Shown here: piece after piece, positions 1 to 20,525 of the stretch
Layout: each line of letters opens with the position of its first letter
Numbering within the stretch: position 1 is the first letter of the stretch
IMG/VR virus record: IMGVR_UViG_3300008108_000337
Coordinates: 4,139 to 68,138 of that record
Length of the DNA: 64,000 nt
Direction: 5' to 3' (one strand)
From: a virus
Notes under the pieces: generated by a model
Told to the model about the DNA's origin: nothing
Seen by the model: only the letters and a program-made list of their open reading frames with translations
The model's database searches: none
Program-made: the position numbers and the translations under genes

Positions 1-389
1 TGTTCTACTGAATCTGCTGATACATAAAGTAGTTTAGAAACATCCACACCGATTGCTTCTAAAAATTCTCTACTTACTGCAGTTTCAGTATCAATCAATA
101 CCGCAACACCACCTAGCTTTTGTGTTTCAGCTAGGAGGTGAGCGGATAGTAATGATTTACCTGATTGTTCTAAACCAGTTACCTCAACAATTCTACCTAC
201 TGGCAATCCACCATAAGGGCGGTTAGAAATTGCAACATCCAACATTGCACATCCAGTAGATACCCATCCATCAACATTGGTGGGTGCTTCATCTCCATCG
301 AGAAAGAAGGCTACCTTCTGATCTTTGGAATATTTATTTAGCTCATCCGCAAGGATATCCGCTAAATCCAATTCTTGTTTTTTTGCCAT
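1..389 (-). CDS. recA: RecA/UvsX-like recombinase (N-terminal part; runs off the window)
   Basis: Manual translation from the ATG at 389 gives MAKKQELDLADILA...VSTGCAMLDVAISNRPYGGLPVGRIVEVTGLEQSGKSLL...VLIDTETA. This carries the RecA STG..LD and GGLP.GRI.E motifs and a Walker A (GLEQSGKS). Confidence 0.95.
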   Translation of the reverse strand, partial: MAKKQELDLADILADELNKYSKDQKVAFFLDGDEAPTNVDGWVSTGCAMLDVAISNRPYGGLPVGRIVEVTGLEQSGKSLLSAHLLAETQKLGGVAVLIDTETAVSREFLEAIGVDVSKLLYVSADSVE

Positions 390-1218: not shown

Positions 1219-1354
1219 TTTCTTTTTGTTTTAAAGTTAATTAATTAATTTGTTTTATGGTTTTATTTACGAGTCTTTCCTACTCGCGGTGTGTACTTAT
1301 AAGTATAGAATTTACCGATTTTCTGATACTTTTTTTGGTGTTATTTTTGAATTA

Positions 1355-1385
1355 CAAAGATACGAAAAATAATTGACATTACCAA
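1355..1385 (-). promoter_or_regulatory. Bacteroidota sigma70-type promoter upstream of ssb-recA
   Basis: Minus strand reads TTGG...TTTTTCG-TATCTTTG. This matches the -7 element TAnnTTTG with a TTG(G) -33 element. Confidence 0.65.
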
Positions 1386-1817
1386 CTATTTTGCCCATTT
1401 TCCATTCTTTACAATCTGAGCAATGATACCATAAACTGATAAATCTTGGTAAGTGTCATTGATACTTTCACCAACGGTATCACTATATCCCAATACCACT
1501 AATTGTTTTAATCGTTGGATTTTATCATTCATTCTGAACCACAATCCAGTCAAGGATAATTTAACATCATCTTGGGTTTGTAATTGAGTTCCTACGGAAA
1601 TATTACTCGGGCCATAGTTTAATTGTTTTTTACAAAACAACTCATATTGAGTAAACATAATTGCTTTGAATTCATCCGTCATCTCGGGATACATTTGTTC
1701 AACTTGTTTTACCACAGCCGGTTCATCGTATTGTACTACTCGAATCTCATCTTCCTTTGGAAGGATATTCATTTGAATTTCTTTTTTTGCTTCTTGTTTT
1801 ATAACCTTTCTTTCCAT
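1386..1817 (-). CDS. nucleotide modification associated domain 1 (DUF1599-like) protein
   Basis: LFCKKQLNYG, GLWFRMNDKIQRL and ESINDTYQDLSVYGII pattern typical of this all-helical family. Confidence 0.75.
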   Translation of the reverse strand: MERKVIKQEAKKEIQMNILPKEDEIRVVQYDEPAVVKQVEQMYPEMTDEFKAIMFTQYELFCKKQLNYGPSNISVGTQLQTQDDVKLSLTGLWFRMNDKIQRLKQLVVLGYSDTVGESINDTYQDLSVYGIIAQIVKNGKWAK

Positions 1818-1820
1818 AAT

Positions 1821-1967
1821 TTATTTTTCTAATACCCATCTAAGAGTATCAATTTGAGTTTGTATTTTTAATATATTAATATCGTGCAGGATATCGAGTT
1901 TCATCTCTTTTGAGAGTGCAAGTTCTAATTCTGATATTTTTATTAGAATATCTGTTTCGTTTTTCAT
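1821..1967 (-). CDS. 48-aa hypothetical protein (paralogue C' of 3870..4019)
   Basis: Manual ORF MKNETDILIKISELELAL...LRWVLEK; ATGA overlap with the upstream gene; paralogue present in the window. Confidence 0.75.
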   Translation of the reverse strand: MKNETDILIKISELELALSKEMKLDILHDINILKIQTQIDTLRWVLEK

Positions 1968-2512
1968 GTTAAAAAATTTTCTTTATTCCATTTTCCAAAT
2001 TCGTCTCTTCGATATAATTCTATCAAATCTTTACATTCATCATAGGGAAGTTTGATAAAATATTTGTTTTTTTCCTCCCAACCATTAACATCTCGATAAA
2101 TGATGTTATTAATATATGGTTTAATGGACTCTGATTTGGTATAGAGTAAACTCATTCTATTATCAAAAAATTGAATATAATCTACTTTCCAATCTTTATA
2201 TTCATTATTCCATTTACCTTTTTTACCATCGCGAAGGGGAGATTCATTCCAATAATGTTTTTTTCGATTTGGTAATCTAAAACCACCTTCATTTTTGAAT
2301 GAATTTAATACATCAAATGTTAGAAATTCTACATCACACCCCTCACTATTTCCAAACATCAAATCGATTTGAACATCATTCCCAAATTTAATTTGAGTAT
2401 AGTTTTTATGTTTATACAAAAATTCTCGTGCAAGTTCTCTATCTAATATATCCGAGTACTTTTTTGACTCACTTTGAGTAAAACTACCATTTTTATTTTG
2501 ATATGCAAGCAT
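1964..2512 (-). CDS. hypothetical protein (possible nuclease-like fold)
   Basis: 182-aa ORF; ID-L...DVEF is only weakly reminiscent of PD-(D/E)xK enzymes. Confidence 0.6.
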   Translation of the reverse strand: MLAYQNKNGSFTQSESKKYSDILDRELAREFLYKHKNYTQIKFGNDVQIDLMFGNSEGCDVEFLTFDVLNSFKNEGGFRLPNRKKHYWNESPLRDGKKGKWNNEYKDWKVDYIQFFDNRMSLLYTKSESIKPYINNIIYRDVNGWEEKNKYFIKLPYDECKDLIELYRRDEFGKWNKENFLT

Positions 2513-2513
2513 A

Positions 2514-2774
2514 TTAAAACTTTTGAATCACCAACATTGCATCACTTACATCTTCTTCTCTTAAATAACCAACCACATCACCATTTGCAATAGGATTATC
2601 ATAATGAATTTCTCCATCTTTTAATACTGCTAATTCGTATAACCCTTGTTTACCACCATACGAAAAAGGAGTTCGGACTACACTAACACCATACCCATTA
2701 TCAAAATATTCTCTAGTCATCCACCCTATACCACCCGTATGGGGTTCAAAATTTAAATCTTTAAATGTTTTCAT
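2514..2774 (-). CDS. hypothetical protein (paralogue B' of 4022..4288)
   Basis: Shares MKTFKDL.FE, YFDNGYG.SVV and GLYELAVLKD.E.HYDNP.ANGDVVGYL with 4022..4288. Confidence 0.85.
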   Translation of the reverse strand: MKTFKDLNFEPHTGGIGWMTREYFDNGYGVSVVRTPFSYGGKQGLYELAVLKDGEIHYDNPIANGDVVGYLREEDVSDAMLVIQKF

Positions 2775-2785
2775 AAAAAATTAAT

Positions 2786-3271
2786 TTACCAAGATGCGGA
2801 ATAAAAATAATCACCACTATAATACTCTCTACCATTTTTATCTTTTACTTTTTCAGAAAGTTCTTGTTGGAGAATTTCAATCGTATGGTCAATATCATTC
2901 ATATAATGCTCATTATAATCAGTATCACCAAAAAAGAACCCACTTGTGGTTGGTAATAACTCTTCCCCTTTTGATGGATTTTCTTTAACTTGTTTACACA
3001 TATCTAACAAATTCATCAAATCATCAATATCAACATAATACGATTTACAATCATCTTCTCCATTTTGGACATTCTGAACGAACCAATTATGAATGTGATT
3101 TGCCTTTCTCCAATACCCAACTTGTTCTTCAATATAAGAAACTCTCTCGGGTTTAATACTTTCAACGAGTTTACCACCTCGTTTTACAATTACTTCGTGT
3201 CTTTCTTCGGGAGTGTGATGGTCCCAATTTTGCACATAAGTTTTCTTTGATAAATACATATCTAATCCCAT
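2786..3271 (-). CDS. conserved phage hypothetical protein (MGLDMYL...YWRKANHIHNWF type)
   Basis: Recognisable phage motifs MGLDMYL, YWRKANHIHNWFV, LLPTTSGFFFG and YSASW. Confidence 0.8.
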   Translation of the reverse strand: MGLDMYLSKKTYVQNWDHHTPEERHEVIVKRGGKLVESIKPERVSYIEEQVGYWRKANHIHNWFVQNVQNGEDDCKSYYVDIDDLMNLLDMCKQVKENPSKGEELLPTTSGFFFGDTDYNEHYMNDIDHTIEILQQELSEKVKDKNGREYYSGDYFYSASW

Positions 3272-3275
3272 AACT

Positions 3276-3440
3276 TTATTTTTGTTTATTTTTTAAAAAC
3301 TTATCAAGAGCATCCAGCATTCGTTGTACCGGATAAGTACCTTTTTCAGCAGGATCCCATAAATGATAATCTTCACAAGCAATGTAGTAGAATTCTTCCA
3401 ATTCACTTACTGGCATCATGTTTGTAGTTTTAGTTTTCAT
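3276..3440 (-). CDS. 54-aa hypothetical protein
   Basis: Manual ORF MKTKTTNMMPVSELEEFYYIACED...FLKNKQK that fills the gap between its neighbours. Confidence 0.65.
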   Translation of the reverse strand: MKTKTTNMMPVSELEEFYYIACEDYHLWDPAEKGTYPVQRMLDALDKFLKNKQK

Positions 3441-3454
3441 ATCTTTATTTTTAT

Positions 3455-3664
3455 TTATTTCTCCAAAACGTACTTCATCATCTCTTGCATCTTGATAATC
3501 ATAAGTTCCATTTCATCCTTACTAAGATACAACCTACCGTTTAATGTTTTATCATCCAACTCCCTAGTTTCAACTATGATACCATCAAACCCCTCAGTTG
3601 GATAAATTTCAACATTTTGTTCTTCAGTCGCAATAACTGTCTTATTCCAAACTTTATTTTTCAC
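3455..3664 (-). CDS. hypothetical protein
   Basis: 69-aa ORF in a tightly packed run. Confidence 0.7.
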   Translation of the reverse strand: MKNKVWNKTVIATEEQNVEIYPTEGFDGIIVETRELDDKTLNGRLYLSKDEMELMIIKMQEMMKYVLEK

Positions 3665-3671
3665 AACTTTT

Positions 3672-3866
3672 TTAATTTTTAGGTTTTACAATAATTTCTA
3701 AATTATTATCATCAAAACGAAGTCCAACAACTTCCCCACCATTTTCATTTTCATCGGCCTCAACCAACTCCAAAAACTTTTTGAGGTCAAATGCTCGGAT
3801 GAATATACCACCTTGTGCGTATTCACCATCATAACTATCTTTCCAAAATACTTGTTCGTTAAACAT
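3672..3866 (-). CDS. hypothetical protein (paralogue A' of 4296..4490)
   Basis: Highly similar to 4296..4490 (VFWKD.YDGEYA.GGIF.RA.DLKKFLELVEA). Confidence 0.85.
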   Translation of the reverse strand: MFNEQVFWKDSYDGEYAQGGIFIRAFDLKKFLELVEADENENGGEVVGLRFDDNNLEIIVKPKN

Positions 3867-3869
3867 ATC

Positions 3870-4019
3870 TTATTTTTCTAATACCCAATTTAATATTTTA
3901 ATTTTTTCGTTTGCTATGATGATGGAGTCATTTCCTTCAATCGGATTTTCTTTTTTAATATGAGATAGCCACATTTCTAATTCCGATATTTTTATTAAAA
4001 CATCTGTTTCGGTTTTCAT
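3870..4019 (-). CDS. 49-aa hypothetical protein (paralogue C)
   Basis: Manual ORF MKTETDVLIKISELEMWL...LNWVLEK. Confidence 0.75.
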   Translation of the reverse strand: MKTETDVLIKISELEMWLSHIKKENPIEGNDSIIIANEKIKILNWVLEK

Positions 4020-4021
4020 AT

Positions 4022-4288
4022 TTAGAGTTTTTGAACTTCAATCATTAATTCACTAACTTCATCTTCAGATAGGTATCCTACTACATCTCCATTTGCGACT
4101 GGATTATCATAGTGAAGTTCATCATCTTTCAAAACTGCTAATTCATATAATCCCAACTTACCACCATAAGAAAATGTGTGACTTACTACGGATGCACCAT
4201 ACCCATTATCAAAGTAAATTCTACTTTTTTTGCCAGGCATAAATGGGTCTGTCATAATTTCAAACTCCAAGTCTTTGAATGTTTTCAT
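4022..4288 (-). CDS. hypothetical protein (paralogue B)
   Basis: Paralogue of 2514..2774. Confidence 0.85.
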   Translation of the reverse strand: MKTFKDLEFEIMTDPFMPGKKSRIYFDNGYGASVVSHTFSYGGKLGLYELAVLKDDELHYDNPVANGDVVGYLSEDEVSELMIEVQKL

Positions 4289-4295
4289 AATTTTT

Positions 4296-4490
4296 TTAAT
4301 CTTTAGGTTTTACAATTACTTCTAAATTATTTCCATCAAAACGAAGTCCAACAACTTCGCCACCATTACCATTCTCGTTGGCTTCAACCAACTCCAAAAA
4401 TTTTTTAAGGTCTACTGCTCGGGTAAAAATACCACCTTCTGCATATTCACCATCATAGGTGTCTTTCCAAAAAACTACTTCATCAAACAT
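4296..4490 (-). CDS. hypothetical protein (paralogue A)
   Basis: Paralogue of 3672..3866; first gene after a host-type promoter. Confidence 0.85.
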   Translation of the reverse strand: MFDEVVFWKDTYDGEYAEGGIFTRAVDLKKFLELVEANENGNGGEVVGLRFDGNNLEVIVKPKD

Positions 4491-4512
4491 AACTTATTTA
4501 TTTTAGGTTTTA

Positions 4513-4544
4513 CAAATATACGAATAAATTTTTACAATTCCAAA
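4513..4544 (-). promoter_or_regulatory. Bacteroidota sigma70-type promoter
   Basis: Minus strand TTTG-N20-TATATTTG, an exact match to the -33/-7 consensus. Confidence 0.8.
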
Positions 4545-4561
4545 TGGGGTATCACTTATAG

Positions 4562-4936
4562 TTAAGTTCTAAAATGAGCACTGTATTGAGAATTTGCTCT
4601 CAATCGAGCAGTGTATTGTGGAGCCCATCCTTTGGAATGATTACTATATTGTCTTTGTCCAGTTACATTTCCAATAGAATCCCACTCACTTTCCCATTTA
4701 TTATCAGAAAGGAGGATTCCATCTTTAACTTTGATAAAAGGGCCAGTATCGGAATCACCGAATGATTCGATGTTCTTTTTATCTAATTTCCAAAAAATGT
4801 TTTTACGATTTGGTTTATCTACTTCAATGAATAGAACCGAATGAACTTTTACTTTACAAACTTTGATTGGTTTAGAACCAGTTTTTCCGTCCTTTGAAAC
4901 CAATACATTAACGATTTGACCAGTGAAATTTTCCAT
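4562..4936 (-). CDS. hypothetical protein
   Basis: The start is more likely MENFTGQ at 4936, preceded by the AAACCTTAAAACTCCT-type leader seen before other early genes, than 4972. Confidence 0.7.
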   Translation of the reverse strand: MENFTGQIVNVLVSKDGKTGSKPIKVCKVKVHSVLFIEVDKPNRKNIFWKLDKKNIESFGDSDTGPFIKVKDGILLSDNKWESEWDSIGNVTGQRQYSNHSKGWAPQYTARLRANSQYSAHFRT

Positions 4937-13676: not shown

Positions 13677-14294
13677 TTATTTTTTATGTTTATCAGGAGT
13701 ACATATCATGCCTAAATCTTCCCATCCATATTTAGGTTTTTGATTTAAAAATACAAAACATTTCCATATCTTTTGTGTTTCAAAATAGATATGTTTTTCT
13801 AAATGTGAAGGAATTGCAGCATTAGTTGGGATTCTTTTTGCTGGATTATCAAAGTGAAGTGTAATCAGTACACTAAGATTTTCAGTATCATCCCATTTTC
13901 TTTCTTGTTCTTCCAACAATCTCCACTCACCACGATTCAAGTATTGGTCTTGAAGAATAGAATTTAAGTAAGAAAATGTTTGTTTAAGATTCTCCATATT
14001 ATCGGAGAATGTTGCAGCAGGAGCACCATGTCCTTTATCGTATATGTTTGCCTTGTAATCTTCGGCATCGGATGTTTTTACATCCTTTTCTTTGTAAAAA
14101 TCCATCGTACCTCTATTTACATTTGTCGGACGATTGGTTGAACGATACTTAATCCAAAGTGGTTGTTCTAAATCTTGCGAGTAAAGTGTTTCAAATACCC
14201 CATTTTTTATTCTAACATCACTTAATTTTTGAGAGTAAAGATTACCTACAAATAAAAAAACTGCCAAGAATGGCATTAATAAAAACTTTTTCAT
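13677..14294 (-). CDS. DNA/RNA non-specific endonuclease (NucA/Endonuclease_NS) with signal peptide
   Basis: YDKGHGAPAA (DRGH-type), TFSYLN..LQ...LNRGEWR.LE; N-terminal MKKFLLMPFLAVFLFVG signal-like segment. Confidence 0.88.
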   Translation of the reverse strand: MKKFLLMPFLAVFLFVGNLYSQKLSDVRIKNGVFETLYSQDLEQPLWIKYRSTNRPTNVNRGTMDFYKEKDVKTSDAEDYKANIYDKGHGAPAATFSDNMENLKQTFSYLNSILQDQYLNRGEWRLLEEQERKWDDTENLSVLITLHFDNPAKRIPTNAAIPSHLEKHIYFETQKIWKCFVFLNQKPKYGWEDLGMICTPDKHKK

Positions 14295-14326: not shown

Positions 14327-15610
14327 TTAAACTTTTGAGTAATCCATACCCCAAGAGGCTTTTATTGGAAATCCAAAAGATTCAAGAACGGATTTAACCC
14401 CCTTAATGACATCCACTTCAGATGCATCAAACTCAAATAGAAACGAATCGTATGTATAAAGTAATGGTAATGGTAATCCACTATCCTTCAACTTTTTCAT
14501 TACCTCGATATTGAATTCAGTTTCAGTCGCTTGTAAAAGGTAATTAAAGTATTTTTGTGAAGTAGGTCCTTCTATCCATTCCAAAGGAATCTTTCTCCCC
14601 TTTGGAGTTTGTAAGTATCCCCTTTGAATCGAGTTTGTGTATAGTTGTCCAATAAATCCATCCACCTTATCAAAGAAAGGGATTTTTCTATCTTCTTCAC
14701 TTACACCCCCATAAAGGATTCGGAATGTTCTTCCTTTGGAATCCTCATACGAACACCCATATTCATCCGCCAACCATTGGTGAACCGAAGTTTTGGGTAA
14801 AGGGTATCCAATCAACTTACCGATGATACGAACGTGATACGCATCGTAATCAAATTGAAGAAACATCTTACCTTCTTGTGGAATAAAGATCTCTCGAGTT
14901 CCATCGGATTTGTTTAATGCACCGAAATTGATACCCCCATGACGATTGGATGGGCGGGAAGTAATGGTGTATGGATTGTACTCGGTATAGATTATATCAC
15001 CATGCAAGTTTTTGAGGGATTGTGGCCATCTATCAATAAATTTTTTCGTATCGACACGAATCCCCGATTGCTCGGTCTGAGAAAGAATAGGAATCATCGT
15101 ATCATCAATCCACGAATCTTTAGATTTTAATTTCCAATCATTTGTAATACTTCGTAGAACCTCTCCCCACTTCATTATAGGGATACTTTTACCCAATCCA
15201 TCTCTCATACCCAATCGGGTGTAAAAGTTCGTTAGAGCCTCTAATTTATCCCCAAAAGGGTATAGTTTGCCTTGTTCAAAAAATAAGTAGGTTTGTATAT
15301 CCTTTTGGTTTTGGATTTGGATTTTGGTTTGTAAAAATCCTTTTTTATTCCAAACAAATTTAGGTGTATTGGATTGGGAAAGGTCTATTTGTATATTATG
15401 GCAATCATTGTGATTGATTGGAATAATAAAATCAATTGGAAGATAACCGGCATCGGTTTCGGCATCATTGAACCGGACATAAAGAAAAGACAAACTATTA
15501 TTCATAGGATGTCTTTCTAAATCTTCCCAAATTGGAATAATGATTGATTCTTCACGATTCCAATAATTTAAAAATATTTCTTGTTCTTGTTGATTTTCTA
15601 CTACAATCAT
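14327..15610 (-). CDS. compact family A DNA polymerase-like protein
   Basis: TITSRPSN...INF; motif A FLQFDYDAYHVRI; motif B SKGRTFRILYG; FNYLLQATET; motif C LYTYDSFLFE. Confidence 0.82.
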   Translation of the reverse strand: MIVVENQQEQEIFLNYWNREESIIIPIWEDLERHPMNNSLSFLYVRFNDAETDAGYLPIDFIIPINHNDCHNIQIDLSQSNTPKFVWNKKGFLQTKIQIQNQKDIQTYLFFEQGKLYPFGDKLEALTNFYTRLGMRDGLGKSIPIMKWGEVLRSITNDWKLKSKDSWIDDTMIPILSQTEQSGIRVDTKKFIDRWPQSLKNLHGDIIYTEYNPYTITSRPSNRHGGINFGALNKSDGTREIFIPQEGKMFLQFDYDAYHVRIIGKLIGYPLPKTSVHQWLADEYGCSYEDSKGRTFRILYGGVSEEDRKIPFFDKVDGFIGQLYTNSIQRGYLQTPKGRKIPLEWIEGPTSQKYFNYLLQATETEFNIEVMKKLKDSGLPLPLLYTYDSFLFEFDASEVDVIKGVKSVLESFGFPIKASWGMDYSKV

Positions 15611-15895: not shown

Positions 15896-16381
15896 TTAAT
15901 CCCACCAATATCTAATGTTGTGTCCTATAAACTCCCAAAGTAATTTCTCTGCTCTCTTTTGTTTTTCTCTGGATTGTTTTATCAGTTCCCTTTTTACTAA
16001 CTTAATTTCTTCAGCATTATCCCACTTTTCGTATTTGTTTGTAATAAAAGATGAACCAGTACCATCACCAGTATCTTCAAACTCCCATTCTAGTACTTCT
16101 TTACCAAATTGTTCTTCAAGTTTATCAACCCACTCTATTTCATAACTATCACTATAAACATTATCCATGAGTTGAATTGCAGTTCGGATTCGGGATGCAT
16201 TATGTTTTGCATCTGAAGCATATGATTTACCACTTTCGAAAAACTTTGCCTGTCTTTCAAGTTGTTTCTTGAAAAGTTGAATTGAATAGGTGTAATCAAA
16301 ATCAAATCCCTTCCAAATAATTGGTAGAAAATCGATTACTCTTTGAATTTGTTGATATTTTCTTCTAAACCAATACATCAT
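15896..16381 (-). CDS. hypothetical protein (ends YWWD)
   Basis: 161-aa ORF with W.DFDY and WWD motifs common in phage hypotheticals. Confidence 0.75.
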   Translation of the reverse strand: MMYWFRRKYQQIQRVIDFLPIIWKGFDFDYTYSIQLFKKQLERQAKFFESGKSYASDAKHNASRIRTAIQLMDNVYSDSYEIEWVDKLEEQFGKEVLEWEFEDTGDGTGSSFITNKYEKWDNAEEIKLVKRELIKQSREKQKRAEKLLWEFIGHNIRYWWD

Positions 16382-16791
16382 TGTGTTATTATTAAAAAGC
16401 CAGTTTCGTTGGATTTAAACTCTTTAATCATTTTACCCATAAATTCCATATCTTCAGTTAAGTAAGGACCTCCACTTGGGTCTACCATAGAAATTACATC
16501 AGGGTTTGATTTCACTAATGGACCATATACTCTAGCAATATCACAAGGACCAACATATCTATCATTTTCATCATAAATAGACCTATGTACTTCTTCTTTG
16601 AATTCTTTCAAATTCATTTCCCCACCGAAATTCAAATACGCAGTGTATGCTTTGGTATAATCGTTTGGCCAAGCCATTCTACAATGTCTAAATTCACCAT
16701 CCCATTGGATGTTCCCATCATCTAATAAGGTGAATGTGTATTTATCACCATACCGATTTGAGTAAGTTGTTTGTGTTATTTTGTTTTTCAT
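16378..16791 (-). CDS. hypothetical protein
   Basis: 137 aa; NRYGDKYTF and MVDPSGGPY motifs. Confidence 0.75.
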   Translation of the reverse strand: MKNKITQTTYSNRYGDKYTFTLLDDGNIQWDGEFRHCRMAWPNDYTKAYTAYLNFGGEMNLKEFKEEVHRSIYDENDRYVGPCDIARVYGPLVKSNPDVISMVDPSGGPYLTEDMEFMGKMIKEFKSNETGFLIITQ

Positions 16792-16820
16792 TTTCTTTTG
16801 ATTTAAGGTTTAAATTTTAA

Positions 16821-16851
16821 CAAAGATACGAAATTAATTTGATATTTCAAA
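16821..16851 (-). promoter_or_regulatory. Bacteroidota sigma70-type promoter
   Basis: Minus strand TTTG-N19-TATCTTTG. Confidence 0.8.
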
Positions 16852-16983
16852 CCATTCTTTTTTCTTTTCTTCAATTCTTTTTTTGTGAAGGATTCCTTCT
16901 CTTAATCTGACAAACTCTGAAAAATTAAGTGGTTTGCCTTTACATCTACTCAAATAACCTTGATATAATTCTTCCCAATTCAT
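16834..16983 (-). CDS. 49-aa hypothetical protein
   Basis: The likely start is MNWEELYQ at 16983, immediately after the stop of the 28-aa upstream ORF. Confidence 0.6.
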   Translation of the reverse strand: MNWEELYQGYLSRCKGKPLNFSEFVRLREGILHKKRIEEKKKEWFEISN

Positions 16984-16987
16984 TTCT

Positions 16988-17074
16988 TTACCATTTACCG
17001 AATTGTTGATGTTTGTTTCTAAACTCATTTGAGAGAGTAAATCCTAACCAAATTTCTTTTAGTATTTTTTTCAT
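16988..17074 (-). CDS. 28-aa mini-gene
   Basis: MKKILKEIWLGFTLSNEFRNKHQQFGKW*; its ATG is supplied by the 21-bp motif. Confidence 0.55.
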   Translation of the reverse strand: MKKILKEIWLGFTLSNEFRNKHQQFGKW

Positions 17075-17092
17075 TTTTCTTTGGTGTTAAAG

Positions 17093-17230
17093 TTATGATT
17101 GAATTGAGTCAATAAGTTCGTTAAGTATTGAATTCCTACCATTTATCATCATATCTCCAAGTAAAAAAATTATTGGTATAAATGTGATAATACTCCAAAA
17201 TATAATAAAGAATGCTGTAAATGATTTCAT
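17093..17230 (-). CDS. 45-aa membrane mini-protein
   Basis: MKSFTAFFIIFWSIITFIPIIFLLGDMMINGRNSILNELIDSIQS*; one hydrophobic segment. Confidence 0.6.
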   Translation of the reverse strand: MKSFTAFFIIFWSIITFIPIIFLLGDMMINGRNSILNELIDSIQS

Positions 17231-17397
17231 TTCTCTTTGGTGTTAAAGGTTGCAACAATAAACATAACTAATAAAAATGATGTTATCCCCCATCTATAAC
17301 CCTCAATAGGAGTATCAAACTTAAATTGTGAAACAGCATATGCACCGAGCATAAATGCCCAAATGTAACTTCCAATTGTAAATAGTGTCTTTTTCAT
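17227..17397 (-). CDS. 56-aa membrane mini-protein with two hydrophobic segments
   Basis: MKKTLFTIGSYIWAFMLGAYAVSQ...RWGITSFLLVMFIVATFNTKEK*. Confidence 0.65.
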   Translation of the reverse strand: MKKTLFTIGSYIWAFMLGAYAVSQFKFDTPIEGYRWGITSFLLVMFIVATFNTKEK

Positions 17398-17594
17398 TTC
17401 TCTTTGGTGTTAAAAGTTTCGTTATTACACAATCTATCTACATAAAAACTGACTGATTGACAATTATTTTTTGTAGAGCCTTCATCACCACCGTATGTTA
17501 TAGTAAATTCCTCTTTTGTGTGATGTGCTACAACTGACACTTCAGCATCAAGATTGTAATCTAATAGTTTCTGAATCAATTCTTTTACTTTCAT
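17394..17594 (-). CDS. hypothetical protein (MKVKELI type)
   Basis: 66 aa; ends TFNTKEK. Confidence 0.75.
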   Translation of the reverse strand: MKVKELIQKLLDYNLDAEVSVVAHHTKEEFTITYGGDEGSTKNNCQSVSFYVDRLCNNETFNTKEK

Positions 17595-17968
17595 TTCTCT
17601 TTAGTAATTAAATTCAATGCCTGTTCTTTCCAATCAACATTTCCAAATACTGATATACCCTTTACTTTACATTTTTCTTCCATTACTTTAATTTCAATCC
17701 AATCATCATCTAAATGGAATACGAAATTTGGATGTTTTAAAAAGTAATCTGCCTTATGTTCATAGCAAGTAAATACTATTCTTTCTCTGGAAATACCTAA
17801 TTCATCTGCTACTTCAAACAAATCATCGTTTAGTACTGGATGTTGAGGAGTATCTGGCCACCTTGAAGTGACTATCCATACTTCGATTCCTTGAGTTATT
17901 AATTCTTTGGCAAACTCTTGAATTCCAAATTTACTTAAAGTACCATCGAAATCAAAACTTACTTTCAT
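17591..17968 (-). CDS. HAD-superfamily hydrolase-like protein
   Basis: SFDFDGTL (motif I), WIVTSR (motif II) and FHLDDD (motif IV). Confidence 0.82.
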   Translation of the reverse strand: MKVSFDFDGTLSKFGIQEFAKELITQGIEVWIVTSRWPDTPQHPVLNDDLFEVADELGISRERIVFTCYEHKADYFLKHPNFVFHLDDDWIEIKVMEEKCKVKGISVFGNVDWKEQALNLITKEK

Positions 17969-18606
17969 TCTCCTCCAATAGTTGAATTTCCTGCAATTTT
18001 TTTAATCCTTAAATCACTCCACAATTTTTCCAAACTTTCTAAATTCGTATTAGTAATTTTAGCAGTAGGGTCTAATCTTTTAATCTCTTCCATCACTTCT
18101 TCAGTTCTACCTCTTTTGTAAAACCCTTCTTCAATAGCATCTGATAGTTCTTGTAAGTGTTTGGGTGCTGAAAGAGTAATTCTTAAATCATAATCACTCC
18201 ATTTGGTTTTGTAATCCCATATAAAAATACCTTTAGTTAGTTTTTTTTCTAAATTGTGTAATCTAAAGTTTCTGACTCTCACAACTGATTTATCACTACC
18301 AAAAGTGTGTAGAAAACGAAGGAACCATCTTGGACATCCTTTTGGTCTTGCCTCATAATCCATTGCGAGAATAAGTGGATACATTGCCTTAAATATCTCA
18401 CTATCCTCTCTGTATGGAACCGAACCCAAGTACCCATACTTTTCTTCAAACGATTGTGGAAAAAAGATTTCTCTAATATCATCCCATTCAATGTTTCTAG
18501 TGTATATCATACCTCTCTTTCTACCTCTCCAAAATAGGAGGGATTCCAAAAAATCTACTACCTTTTCTTTCAAAAGTCTAGTATCTTTGTATTCAAATTT
18601 GCTCAT
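17965..18606 (-). CDS. hypothetical protein
   Basis: 213-aa ORF overlapping both neighbours by 4 nt. Confidence 0.75.
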   Translation of the reverse strand: MSKFEYKDTRLLKEKVVDFLESLLFWRGRKRGMIYTRNIEWDDIREIFFPQSFEEKYGYLGSVPYREDSEIFKAMYPLILAMDYEARPKGCPRWFLRFLHTFGSDKSVVRVRNFRLHNLEKKLTKGIFIWDYKTKWSDYDLRITLSAPKHLQELSDAIEEGFYKRGRTEEVMEEIKRLDPTAKITNTNLESLEKLWSDLRIKKIAGNSTIGGE

Positions 18607-18962
18607 AACTTAAATAATTCATATACCGAATTTGTGGTTTTAAATTTCACATATTCATCTCGTTGTTCTAAAATTTCGGTGACGGTTGTAGTTTGCCAAG
18701 TAAAATAATCACTAAATGGAGACATGATAAGGGAACGATTCAAACCAATATCATCATACTTTTCTTTGAATCTACCATCATCGTTAAATTCAATCCACAT
18801 TACCTTTTCTGATTGTTTACTCAACCCATCTCGTTCTCTGACGAGTTTCCAATTAAATTTGTTTTCTACTAATCCCATTAGTTCTGCTTGTAGGGGGTCT
18901 AAATGAAAGTTTCCATTATCATCAATAGAAACTAATAATTTTGGTTGTACTCCAGTTATCAT
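18603..18962 (-). CDS. hypothetical protein
   Basis: 119 aa; WQTTTVTEI...FKTTNSVYEL. Confidence 0.75.
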   Translation of the reverse strand: MITGVQPKLLVSIDDNGNFHLDPLQAELMGLVENKFNWKLVRERDGLSKQSEKVMWIEFNDDGRFKEKYDDIGLNRSLIMSPFSDYFTWQTTTVTEILEQRDEYVKFKTTNSVYELFKL

Positions 18963-19745: not shown

Positions 19746-20525
19746 TTATTTTCCCCAATGTTTTTCTCGGAGTTCGTAAATATCAATTGGTTCTCGTTTC
19801 ATATGTGAACCCTGATTAAAATATGCACCCTTTTTCAAATAACCACCTAAAAGGTTTCTTCTAAATCTATTAGAGTTATTTGGTTCTGAACCATGAACGG
19901 TATGTGAATGAAGTAAAACTACTTCCCCTTTACGAAGGTAACCTTCTACCTTTTTAAAATCATGTCCTTCTGGCATTACACAAGGTTTACCTCTTTCGTT
20001 TCTCCAAAACTTGGGATTACTTTTAGTTCTTTCTTCATCCACTTCAATTGGTAGAACTGGTAATCGATGTGAACCTTCATAGTTCCACACTGCACCATTT
20101 TCGGGGTCATGATTATCTAATGCCAAAGCTGTATTGATAATTTCATTATGTCCACAACCAGTATAGAATGCGTTTTGATGCATATCTCTACCCAACTGTC
20201 CCGGTGGTTTGAAATATGACCAAGTTTGTAAACCTACCAATTCACCTTCCATCAAGAACTCCATTGCCTCGATAAGTTTTGGATGTGCAAAAATTGATTC
20301 TAATTTTGGTGATAATTTATGTGGATATGCAAACGGGTCCCATTCTCCCCACTCTTCACCATTTTCTTTGGTAGTTAGAGCTCGTTCTTGTCGTAATCGT
20401 TCTAATTCATTGTTGATTTCATCACATTGCTCCTCGGTAAGGAGTTGTAATACTGTCCAACCTCTGTATCTCCAATCGAAGGTCATTTGTTGGATTTCTT
20501 CTTGTGTAAGATGTTTAAATGTCAT
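19746..20525 (-). CDS. phytanoyl-CoA dioxygenase (PhyH)-family 2OG-Fe(II) oxygenase
   Basis: YFKPPG...MHQN, ALD...PENG....YEGSH, GEVVLLHSHTVHGSEPNNSNRFRR. Confidence 0.88.
   Translation of the reverse strand: MTFKHLTQEEIQQMTFDWRYRGWTVLQLLTEEQCDEINNELERLRQERALTTKENGEEWGEWDPFAYPHKLSPKLESIFAHPKLIEAMEFLMEGELVGLQTWSYFKPPGQLGRDMHQNAFYTGCGHNEIINTALALDNHDPENGAVWNYEGSHRLPVLPIEVDEERTKSNPKFWRNERGKPCVMPEGHDFKKVEGYLRKGEVVLLHSHTVHGSEPNNSNRFRRNLLGGYLKKGAYFNQGSHMKREPIDIYELREKHWGK

What the first reader, a model, noticed from the sequence alone, without database searches (positions are those of the whole stretch)
16988..17968. Cassette-like array of mini-genes joined by a 21-bp motif containing the next start codon
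Seen: TTTAACACCAAAGAGAAATGA recurs at 17071, 17227, 17394 and, degenerate, at 17591 (spacing 156, 167, 197 bp). It separates unrelated genes of 28-125 aa, two of them membrane proteins. In three copies it encodes a TKEK* C-terminus with an ATGA overlap. At 17071 it is non-coding because the upstream gene stops at 17093, so conservation is at the nucleic-acid level. Inference: a standard junction allowing single genes to be gained, lost or reordered by short-homology recombination while keeping translational coupling. It is integron-like but has no integrase in the window; the phage RecA is a candidate catalyst.
Basis: partly seen in the sequence, partly recalled or inferred. Interest (0 to 1): 0.75.

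Follow-up and report, generated by a model that had tools for sequence, protein, structure and literature searches.

The report
Shared stop-start linker between phage mini-genes
A 25-base sequence that ends one tiny gene and starts the next is shared word for word by many uncultured phages, and related phages gain, lose and swap tiny genes at it, a short variant of a known way of shuffling phage genes.

Summary
TTTAACACCAAAGAGAAATGA lies on the minus strand at 17394 and 17227 (exact), 17071 (1 mismatch) and 17591 (4 mismatches); 0 copies are expected by chance.

The element is much wider than this window. The exact 21-mer occurs in more than 122 uncultured viral contigs. It always sits in one small same-strand cluster per genome. 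It was not found in 50,697 isolated phage records.

It is a discrete 25-nt nucleotide element, AACC plus the 21-mer. It keeps its sequence whether the upstream gene reads through it (109 copies), stops at its TAA in another frame (52), or there is no upstream gene (48). It heads ORFs of median 57 aa, which fall into 78 unrelated clusters.

Similarity between contigs stops at it in about 90% of pairs, against 37-48% at other gene ends. The closest relative lacks four of the window's cassettes, and that junction lies in the motif.

Best reading: a portable stop-restart leader that also serves as a short-homology recombination linker. It works like T4 PeSLs but has no promoter or hairpin. It is not an integron. 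The translational role and the catalyst are inferred, not shown.

The parts
17591..17611 (-). Degenerate junction copy (TTAATTACTAAAGAGAAATGA, 4 mismatches of 21). It is the stop of the 125-aa gene and the start of the 66-aa gene (ATGA overlap).
   Evidence: Sequence. The 14-nt core has 1 mismatch. One end of the X11 joint 17077->17600 lies here.
17394..17414 (-). Exact junction copy. It encodes FNTKEK* of the 66-aa gene and holds the ATG of the 56-aa gene.
17227..17251 (-). Exact junction copy with its AACC 5' extension (the 25-nt form). It encodes FNTKEK* of the 56-aa gene and holds the ATG of the 45-aa gene.
   Evidence: The AACC extension is conserved in all context classes.
17071..17091 (-). 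Junction copy with 1 mismatch. It is untranslated, lies 1 nt after the TAA of the 45-aa gene, and holds the ATG of the 28-aa gene. Homology with relative L135 resumes here.
   Evidence: The other end of the X11 joint lies here.
17591..17968 (-). Cassette gene of 125 aa. The N-terminus MKVSFDFDGTLS looks like the DxDxT motif of HAD phosphatases (recalled, no family hit above cut-off). Absent from L135.
   Evidence: weak PHROG hits of unknown function; no Pfam hit.
17394..17594 (-). Cassette gene of 66 aa. Only its last 11 residues (NNETFNTKEK) match the 'MKTPMQEL...YYNETFNTKEK' family. Absent from L135.
17227..17397 (-). Cassette gene of 56 aa, moderately hydrophobic. A motif-led homologue sits in locus L057 behind a different upstream neighbour. 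Absent from L135.
17093..17230 (-). Cassette gene of 45 aa with one strongly hydrophobic segment. Absent from L135.
16988..17074 (-). Motif-led 28-aa gene, kept in relatives (96% aa in L135, 74% in L138 and L139).
17965..18606 (-). Conserved 213-aa gene that flanks the array upstream. In L135 its C-terminus runs into a motif copy (..NRNTKEK*). In the window it ends ..STIGGE* on an ATGA overlap with GGAGGAG before it.
16378..16791 (-). Conserved 137-aa gene downstream of the array. Homologues flank other motif arrays (L016, L073, L083).
1..308 (-). 3' part of a RecA/UvsX-type recombinase gene (record positions 3667-4446). It is a candidate catalyst of recombination between copies.
   Evidence: PF00154, E 3.2e-59.

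Best explanation
The element is a 25-nt portable gene junction, AACC-TTTAACACCAAAGAGAAATGA, that does two jobs.

(1) On the mRNA it closes whatever gene lies upstream. It offers TAA at bases 3-5 in one frame and TGA at bases 19-21 in another. It also supplies an A-rich, poorly paired 17-nt leader and the ATG of the next mini-gene. A terminating ribosome can then restart at once, or a free one can load where there is no upstream gene. This job is inferred.

(2) On the DNA it is the only sequence shared by otherwise unrelated cassettes, and by different phages that meet in the same hosts. General homologous or single-strand-annealing recombination between two copies therefore deletes, inserts or swaps whole mini-genes without breaking a reading frame. 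The candidate enzymes are RecA/UvsX in this T4-like phage and Erf plus a RecE-like exonuclease in many of the others. That breakpoints lie on the element is shown. The enzyme is inferred.

The junction probably began as the 3' end of an abundant three-helix mini-protein family (MKTPMQEL...YYNETFNTKEK) joined to the start of its next tandem paralogue.
For: Discrete nucleotide element. There are 221 copies (up to 3 mismatches) in 121 sources.
- In 109 copies the upstream ORF reads through to the TGA.
- In 52 it stops at the TAA in another frame.
- In 48 there is no upstream ORF.
- In all three classes information is about 1 bit per base at -4..-1 and 1.3-2 bits within the 21-mer. It falls to about 0 beyond -5.
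- Three copies abut tRNA genes with zero spacing.

Register with translation. An ATG sits at bases 18-20 in 217 of 221 copies. The downstream ORF has a median of 57 aa (n=185). In 66 of 185 it ends inside the next copy. The region -17..+6 is more unpaired than at other ORF starts (0.62 vs 0.55, p=4.5e-9).

One array per genome. In 10 of 10 long viral records all copies lie on one strand within 0.3-2 kb, and the reversed-pattern control found none.

Unrelated cassettes. 150 motif-led ORFs fall into 78 clusters, 55 of them singletons.

Breakpoints.
- 357 of 1645 internal HSP 5' ends fall at -10..+5, and 350 of 1577 3' ends fall at +17..+26.
- Similarity stops at the junction in 295/331 and 331/364 pairs.
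- At all non-motif ORF ends it stops in 239/651 and 253/653 pairs.
- At small ORFs within 800 nt of arrays it stops in 223/467, and at the remaining non-motif ORF ends (farther from the arrays or larger than 120 aa) in 61/294.
- The commonest family has 8 different upstream neighbours and 16 different downstream families across the motif.

This phage's own lineage.
- L135 lacks four cassettes, and homology resumes in the motif.
- Arrays at the same syntenic place in L017, L057, L083 and L033 hold other genes.
- The X11 contig joins 17077 to 17600.

Recombinases nearby. RecA/UvsX in this record. A PDDEXK exonuclease in 20 loci, and Erf.
Against: No experiment or RNA data bears on translation.
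- The motif has G at -3 and C at -12, where F. johnsoniae favours A. Only A-6 and A-13 fit (PMC6847099, passages read).
- The gain in unpairedness is small.
- Other genes of the same phages do not use the motif, so it is not needed for translation as such.

Breakpoints could be a passive result of the motif being the only conserved stretch in a generally mosaic region. 48% of small non-motif junctions near arrays are breakpoints too.

The loci were ascertained by the exact 21-mer, so its invariance is partly by construction. Pairs of loci are also not independent.

In the window, the left edge of the four-cassette difference from L135 lies in the diverged C-terminus of the 213-aa gene. It does not lie at a good motif copy.

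The read evidence is one contig with 30 letters on its shorter side, laid at an 85% threshold.

27 of 29 relatives found through the 213-aa gene have no copy (up to 4 mismatches) within about 5 kb.
Confidence: 0.6

Rival explanations
1. The element is only a shared translational control site. It would be a leader or operator recognised by a trans-acting factor that switches a class of early mini-genes on or off together, as T4 RegA (a repressor) and RegB (an RNase) do (recalled). The breakpoints at it are then a by-product with no role in gene exchange.
For: The register with the ATG is fixed in 217 of 221 copies. Each genome has one co-oriented array. The sequence is near-identical across phages of 29-47% G+C, which a sequence-specific binder would explain better than a generic A-rich leader. 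The window array has no promoter or terminator signal above chance, so it is one operon whose genes could be tuned at the RNA level.
Against: No protein is common to the loci. The most frequent neighbours are in 42, 20, 16 and 15 of 121 loci and are not RNA-binding families. The element spans T4-like and non-T4-like phages. This reading does not explain why cassette content differs among near relatives exactly at the element.
Confidence: 0.2
2. The element is the target of a dedicated enzyme that cuts or recombines at the AACC|TTTAAC border. Candidates are a homing-type HNH nuclease or an unrecognised recombinase. Cassette movement would then be site-specific, a true integron analogue.
For: The 5' border is sharp in every context, and the element abuts tRNA 3' ends exactly. 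Half-motif remnants are followed by inserted regulatory blocks (L059, L020, L013, L054). Small HNH genes lie inside or beside arrays in 16 of 121 loci.
Against: The 68-kb record has no HNH and no tyrosine integrase, though the record is only about 34% complete. The HNH genes are not motif-led and sit at variable distances. No recombinase family appeared among 40 cluster representatives apart from Erf and the PDDEXK exonuclease. The element has no inverted-repeat arm.
Confidence: 0.1
3. The repeat is a conserved C-terminal peptide (..ETFNTKEK) of one paralogous protein family. The array would be a tandem duplication whose gene bodies have diverged.
For: The largest cassette family ends YYNETFNTKEK. 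48 of the 120 best database hits end FNTKEK and 74 of 120 hold YYNETF. Tandem copies of this family occur.
Against: 100 of 221 copies are not translated in that frame (52 stop at the TAA, 48 are non-coding). The variants are not preferentially synonymous, and some hold an in-frame stop. The tail is disordered in the model (pLDDT below 50 for residues 76-78). The window cassettes share nothing but the tail.
Confidence: 0.04
4. The element is a DNA-level signal of another kind. It could be a phage-specific promoter giving very short leaders, or iterons of a replication origin near the replication genes.
For: The copies cluster in one place beside replication and recombination genes: a DnaA_C-like HTH, a primase/helicase-like protein, ParB_N. 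In some non-coding contexts a TAAAAT lies 7 nt before the element, so transcripts could start at its first base.
Against: Spacing is 84-949 nt and set by gene length, unlike iterons. Most copies lie inside or against coding sequence, with no conserved bases upstream where promoter elements would sit. The fixed ATG register is unexplained by either idea.
Confidence: 0.05

Closest known systems
PeSL (promoter-early stem-loop) regulatory cassettes in hyperplastic regions of T4-type phages. Arbiol et al. 2010, PMC2839356 (abstract and sections 13 and 16 read). Comeau et al. 2014, PMC4122927 (abstract read).
   Same: Repeated regulatory junctions sit just upstream of small orphan genes in variable regions of T4-type phages. 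Insertions, deletions and replacements between close relatives map to them. The proposed mechanism is homologous recombination between copies. The downstream gene's start signal is part of the unit.
   Different: PeSLs are about 100 bp and are defined by a sigma-70-type promoter plus a stem-loop terminator. They are intergenic, scattered (about 50 per genome) and lineage-specific. This element is 25 nt and has no promoter or hairpin. It usually overlaps the upstream coding sequence and acts as a stop-start junction. It occurs in one array per genome, and the same sequence is shared by T4-like and non-T4-like phages. Mini-circles were shown for PeSLs and were not tested here.
Integron gene-cassette arrays (IntI, attI, attC); recalled knowledge
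   Same: A co-oriented array of single promoterless genes, each with a recombination-prone junction. Cassette content varies between relatives.
   Different: No IntI integrase was found, and there is no attC-type imperfect inverted repeat. The junction includes the start codon and stop codons. The exchange is most simply explained by general recombination.
Overlapping stop/start gene pairs (ATGA) translated by termination-reinitiation. Huber et al. 2019, PMC6728339, and 2023, PMC10666635 (search listing and start of abstracts only).
   Same: 109 of 221 copies have the ATGA overlap, and 52 more have a stop 12 nt before the ATG. This is the geometry that gives tight coupling.
   Different: Ordinary overlapping pairs share no conserved 25-nt sequence and are not recombination breakpoints. 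Coupling was not measured here.
   Same: Short conserved sequences between exchangeable modules that would guide recombination to harmless places.
   Different: Those were proposed between large functional modules of temperate phages and are weakly conserved. Here the units are single mini-genes and the linker is near-identical across many phages.

Membership tests
Integron | IntI-type tyrosine recombinase next to the array | tested here: not met
   PF00589 was not found in the 68-kb record. The record is about 34% complete, so absence from the whole genome is not shown. No integrase appeared among the 40 neighbour-cluster representatives of the other loci.
Integron | attC sites: imperfect inverted repeats that fold into a hairpin at the 3' end of each cassette | tested here: not met
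   Conservation is confined to 25 nt, with about 0 bits beyond -5 and beyond +2 in 202 distinct copies. There is no second arm.
PeSL cassettes of T4-type phages | Sigma-70-type early promoter inside the repeat | tested here: not met
   The window array has 9 promoter-like matches against 12.7 expected. In 161 of 221 copies the upstream flank is coding sequence, and no conserved bases lie upstream of -5. Only some non-coding copies follow promoter-like repeat blocks.
PeSL cassettes of T4-type phages | Stem-loop terminator or attenuator inside the repeat | tested here: not met
   There are 0 terminator-like sites in 16300-18700. The element is more unpaired than other ORF starts. G+C-rich hairpins precede only a few non-coding copies (L015, L035, L105).
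PeSL cassettes of T4-type phages | Sits upstream of orphan genes in variable regions, and indels between close relatives map to it | tested here: met
   (cassettes have no functional family). (breakpoints).
Termination-reinitiation gene pairs | Stop and start overlap (ATGA) or lie a few nt apart | tested here: met
   109 of 221 copies have ATGA. 52 of 221 have TAA 12 nt before the ATG.
Termination-reinitiation gene pairs | Downstream translation depends on upstream translation | not testable with these tools
   This needs reporter constructs or ribosome profiling.
Bacteroidia-type SD-less initiation region (Baez et al. 2019) | Adenines at -3, -6, -12 and -13 and low structure | tested here: inconclusive
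   The motif has G-3, A-6, C-12 and A-13 (sequence against PMC6847099 passages). It is somewhat more unpaired than other starts. It has no unusual complementarity to 16S rRNA.

The most novel reading that the evidence does not exclude
The 25-mer is the common 'plug' of an integrase-free cassette exchange network. Through it, unrelated phages of the same hosts (T4-like giants and 40-100-kb phages) draw on one shared, fast-turning pool of more than a thousand mini-gene variants. Exchange would be helped by dedicated machinery that acts at the sharp AACC|TTTAAC border, rather than only by chance homologous recombination.
Probability: 0.15. Interest if true: 0.85.

Novelty: new variant of a known kind. 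Interest (0 to 1): 0.6.

Why it matters
The modular theory of phage evolution predicted short linker sequences that steer recombination to safe places between genes. Few concrete examples exist beyond the roughly 100-bp PeSLs of T4-type coliphages.

This element differs from those in four ways:
- It is only 25 nt.
- It is defined to the base.
- It combines two stop codons, a leader and a start codon.
- It is shared, letter for letter, by many uncultured phages of different architecture.

It therefore gives a directly testable system for two questions. How do orphan mini-genes move between phages? How are promoterless genes translated in hosts that ignore Shine-Dalgarno sequences?

It also has two practical uses. 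It marks where metagenome assemblies of these phages tend to break. It also marks a large uncharacterised mini-protein family (1059 database clusters).

Tried and rejected
- Pairing with 16S rRNA. In six 16S genes from the family of a MAG that carries an array, the motif's best duplex (-8.0 to -9.9 kcal/mol) was weaker than 241-300 of 300 shuffles. Pairing to the 3' tail was ordinary (81-109 of 300 shuffles as good). Rejected.
- Known RNA families. Only two sub-threshold eukaryotic snoRNA/snRNA matches appeared. Rejected.
- Promoters and terminators in the window array. None above chance.
- Isolated phages. Of 13 matches at E 1-4, the best on the motif part of the query was 23 nt at 91% in Flavobacterium phage FPSV-D35 (E=4). 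None of the 13 contains the 21-mer exactly.
- Function of the cassettes. Pfam and PHROGs gave no function for the window cassettes or for most cluster representatives.
- The commonest family. It models as three helices (pLDDT 79). It had no significant structural match (best PDB E=1.5; best viral E=0.093, an uncharacterised phage protein). It had no PDB sequence match.
- Weak read joints. X3 17251->17384, X4 17251->17390 and X4 17080->18176 have under 30 letters on the shorter side. They may come from other motif-bearing phages, so I do not count them.
- Depth dips over the cassettes in X7 are not evidence.
- Contig ends. 21 of 78 loci have a contig end within 150 nt of a copy, against 2.07 expected. 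This is real but ambiguous. It could reflect strain variation, or the roughly 80-90-nt repeats at junctions between tandem paralogues of the commonest family.
- HNH as a universal partner. Absent from this record.
- Literature. The strings TTTAACACCAAAGAG, FNTKEK and YYNETF occur in 0 papers.
- Earlier notes of this scan. Nothing by sequence or by place.
- Assembly chimeras as the cause of the mosaic. I consider this unlikely, because a 25-nt repeat is shorter than usual assembly word sizes and reads. It was not excluded here.
Full report
**1. Observation**

- With up to 3 mismatches it occurs three times in the window, all on the minus strand: 17394-17414 (exact), 17227-17247 (exact) and 17071-17091 (one mismatch). 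None of 100 shuffles had any copy.
- A fourth copy at 17591-17611 has 4 mismatches of 21 (sequence). Its 14-nt core has one mismatch.
- These are the only copies in the 68-kb viral record that holds the window.
- All genes of the window lie on the minus strand.
- The copies separate ORFs of 125, 66, 56, 45 and 28 aa.
- Three copies encode ..TKEK* and overlap the next start as ATGA.
- The copy at 17071 begins one base after the TAA of the 45-aa gene and is not translated.
- The cassette proteins share nothing but the motif-coded tail.
- The 45-aa protein has a strongly hydrophobic segment. The 56-aa protein is only moderately hydrophobic.

**2. What phage this is**

The window encodes a Gp23-type major capsid protein, a gp19-type tail tube, a tail sheath and a gp32-like protein. 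It is therefore a T4-like myovirus. CheckV rates the record 34% complete. The only DNA-level kin among isolates are Flavobacterium phages of the 'immuto' group, over a 255-nt stretch. A RecA/UvsX gene straddles the window start. No tyrosine integrase and no HNH gene were found in the record.

**3. The element is far wider than this window**

- It was not found in 50,697 isolated phage records.
- It occurs in 9 stretches of 185,579 species genomes. All nine contigs are metagenome-assembled, and five are labelled Bacteroidota, Flavobacteriales, Flavobacteriaceae or Saprospiraceae. In the five of those genomes that I scanned whole, the exact and one-mismatch copies again lie in one small cluster or are single; two genomes each have one stray 3-mismatch copy on another contig, at the level of the reversed-pattern control.
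- In 10 of 10 long viral records (35-212 kb) all copies (1-7, up to 3 mismatches) lie on one strand within 0.3-2 kb. The reversed-pattern control found none.
- It is therefore not the general start signal of these phages.
- The carriers differ in kind. G+C of 78 loci runs from 29 to 47%. A Gp23 capsid gene is present in this record and in 1 of 10 long records (G001). It is absent from all four records rated at least 97% complete.

**4. It is a discrete nucleotide element of 25 nt**

In 121 oriented sources I found 221 copies with up to 3 mismatches, 133 of them exact. Their contexts are as follows:

| Upstream context | Copies |
|---|---|
| Upstream ORF reads through the motif to the TGA (..FNTKEK*) | 109 |
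| Upstream ORF is in another frame and stops at the TAA formed by bases 3-5 | 52 |
| No ORF of 25 or more codons upstream | 48 |
| Other | 12 |

The non-coding copies follow several kinds of sequence:
- tRNA genes that end at the base before the motif (L009, L079, L113);
- G+C-rich hairpins;
- blocks of promoter-like direct or inverted repeats.

In all three main classes the four bases before the 21-mer (AACC) carry about 1 bit each. Information falls to about 0 beyond -5 and after the second codon. Variant copies are not preferentially synonymous, and some carry an in-frame stop. This rules out a purely protein-level repeat.

**5. What it heads**

- An ATG sits at bases 18-20 in 217 of 221 copies.
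- The ORF that follows has a median of 57 aa (quartiles 38-72, maximum 217, n=185). In 66 of 185 cases it ends inside the next copy.
- Spacings run from 84 to 949 nt.
- 150 motif-led ORFs of at least 30 aa fall into 78 sequence clusters, 55 of them singletons.
- Almost none has a Pfam or PHROG function.

The largest family (57 members in 42 loci) reads MKTPMQEL..EKEKE..YYNETFNTKEK.
- It has 1059 database clusters at E<=0.001, no Pfam domain and no name.
- 48 of the 120 best hits end FNTKEK, and 74 of 120 contain YYNETF.
- It models as three helices with a disordered NTKEK tail. It has no informative structural match.
- Tandem copies are common.
- I infer that the junction arose as the 3' end of this family plus the start of the next paralogue. 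The window's 66-aa protein shares only its last 11 residues with the family.

**6. Breakpoints**

- All-against-all blastn of the loci. 357 of 1645 internal HSP 5' ends fall at -10..+5 of the motif start. 350 of 1577 3' ends fall at +17..+26.
- Pairs alike on one side of a motif junction. Likeness stops at the junction in 295 of 331 pairs (reading downstream) and 331 of 364 (reading upstream).
- Controls. At all non-motif ORF ends in the same loci it stops in 239 of 651 and 253 of 653 pairs. At small ORFs within 800 nt of the arrays it stops in 223 of 467, and at the remaining non-motif ORF ends in 61 of 294. The region is mosaic in general, but the motif junction stands out.
- The commonest family has 8 kinds of upstream neighbour and 16 downstream families across the motif.

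Evidence within this phage's own lineage:
- Relatives were found without reference to the motif, through the 213-aa gene (29 loci).
- The closest is L135, whose flanking genes are 86-94% identical. It runs 213-aa gene, motif copy (2 mismatches), 28-aa gene, and lacks the 125-, 66-, 56- and 45-aa genes. Homology with the window resumes inside the motif.
- 27 of the 29 have no copy within the locus, so the motif is not an old feature of the clade.
- Other loci have homologues of the same flanking genes (L017, L057, L083, L033) and carry arrays with different cassettes at that place.
- In the assembled contigs of one independent freshwater run (X11), one contig joins 17077 to 17600. That links the copy at 17071 to the copy at 17591 and skips the 66-, 56- and 45-aa genes, with one letter between. 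Its depth is 27, against 9-14 for the contigs that hold those genes. It has only 30 letters on its shorter side and was laid at an 85% threshold, so I treat it as weak support.

**7. How it most likely works**

Shown:
- The element is conserved as nucleic acid.
- It is in fixed register with a start codon.
- It offers stops in two frames.
- It is confined to one array per genome.
- It is the preferred place where likeness between genomes begins and ends.

Inferred:
- On the RNA it acts as a stop-restart adaptor and short leader.
- The geometry is that of termination-reinitiation pairs (PMC6728339 and PMC10666635, listings only).
- The leader is A-rich and somewhat less paired than other starts.
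- It fits two of the four favoured adenine positions reported for F. johnsoniae (PMC6847099 passages).
- It does not pair with 16S rRNA.
- The window array has no promoter or terminator signal above chance, so its genes are probably read from one transcript.

Also inferred: exchange is by general recombination between copies. The candidates are RecA/UvsX here. In other carriers they are a RecE-like PDDEXK exonuclease (20 loci) and Erf. That such enzymes can use about 25 nt of homology is recalled knowledge of Red/Erf-type systems. It was not tested here.

**8. Caveats**

- The loci were picked by the exact 21-mer, so its invariance is partly by construction.
- Pairs of loci are not independent.
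- Contigs come from metagenome assemblies. I think chimeras at a 25-nt repeat are unlikely, but I did not exclude them.
- In the window, the left edge of the difference from L135 lies in the diverged C-terminus of the 213-aa gene, next to a GGAGGAG-type start. It does not lie at a good copy.
- Breakpoints also occur inside the commonest family, at the end of its conserved N-terminus (secondary peak at +42..+61).

**9. Comparison with what is known**

- The closest known system is the PeSL of T4-type phages (PMC2839356, abstract and sections 13 and 16; PMC4122927, abstract).
- The logic is the same: a regulatory junction in front of orphan genes, with indels between relatives mapping to it and recombination between copies.
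- The unit is different: 25 nt instead of about 100, no promoter and no hairpin, a coding-overlapping stop-start junction, one array per genome, and shared between unrelated phages.
- It is not an integron. No IntI was found and there is no attC-type hairpin.
- Searches for the motif string and for the two peptide strings found no paper.
- Earlier AI notes of this scan describe comparable junction motifs in other phages. These lower the surprise. They are not evidence, and I did not check them.

**10. Verdict**

I rate the element a new variant of a known kind, with interest 0.6. The bold reading, a dedicated site-specific cassette system shared across phage lineages, is not excluded. I give it 0.15.

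Noticed in passing
window 1300-4600 (minus-strand genes): A second block of mini-genes is a segmental duplication rather than a junction array. 3658-3875 and 4282-4499 are 85% identical over 218 nt. 2514-2715 and 4022-4223 are 72% identical over 202 nt. 1815-1980 resembles 3864-4032. The paralogues end IVKPK[DN]* and [WY]VLEK*.
   Followed up: partly
window 16809-16842: A 34-nt intergenic piece lies upstream of the 137-aa gene. In all four laid runs, contigs match it and run on unlike the window on both sides (loose ends at 16809 and 16842). It may be another short element shared between different genomes.
   Followed up: no
L009:1925-2000, L079:1759-2000, L113:322-565: Phage tRNA genes (Arg-tct; Arg-tct, Leu-taa and Met-cat) end exactly at the base before a motif copy. 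The mini-gene's leader would therefore be released by tRNA 3' processing.
   Followed up: partly
L059, L020, L013, L054, L029, L071 and others (upstream of motif copies): Non-coding blocks lie between a half or whole motif and the next full motif. They contain tandem AAAGTGTAA[AG]AT repeats (with TAAAAT 7 nt before the motif), GTAAGG..CCTTAC inverted repeats and ATAGGCGCA repeats. They look like promoter or operator modules that are themselves inserted as cassettes.
   Followed up: no
family of L011:155-388 (P0001-P0120): The mini-protein family MKTPMQEL..EKEKE..YYNETF is very large (1059 clusters at 90% identity) and has no name. It is itself mosaic, with interchangeable N-terminal and middle parts, and lies mostly on short contigs.
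   Followed up: partly
window 14327-15610: A 427-aa ORF matches only the C-terminal part of family-A DNA polymerase models (PHROG 17 positions 1121-1232 of 1445; Pfam DNA_pol_A below cut-off). It may be one piece of a split or very divergent polymerase in a T4-like phage.
   Followed up: no
window 19746-20525 and 13677-14294: A PhyH-type dioxygenase (E 1.4e-20) and a non-specific DNA/RNA endonuclease (E 8.5e-18) flank the early-gene block.
   Followed up: no
16 motif loci, e.g. L076:1530-1781, L050: Small HNH endonuclease genes (81-108 aa) sit inside or beside the arrays. Several start 270-318 nt after a motif copy, behind a 51-aa motif-led gene.
   Followed up: partly
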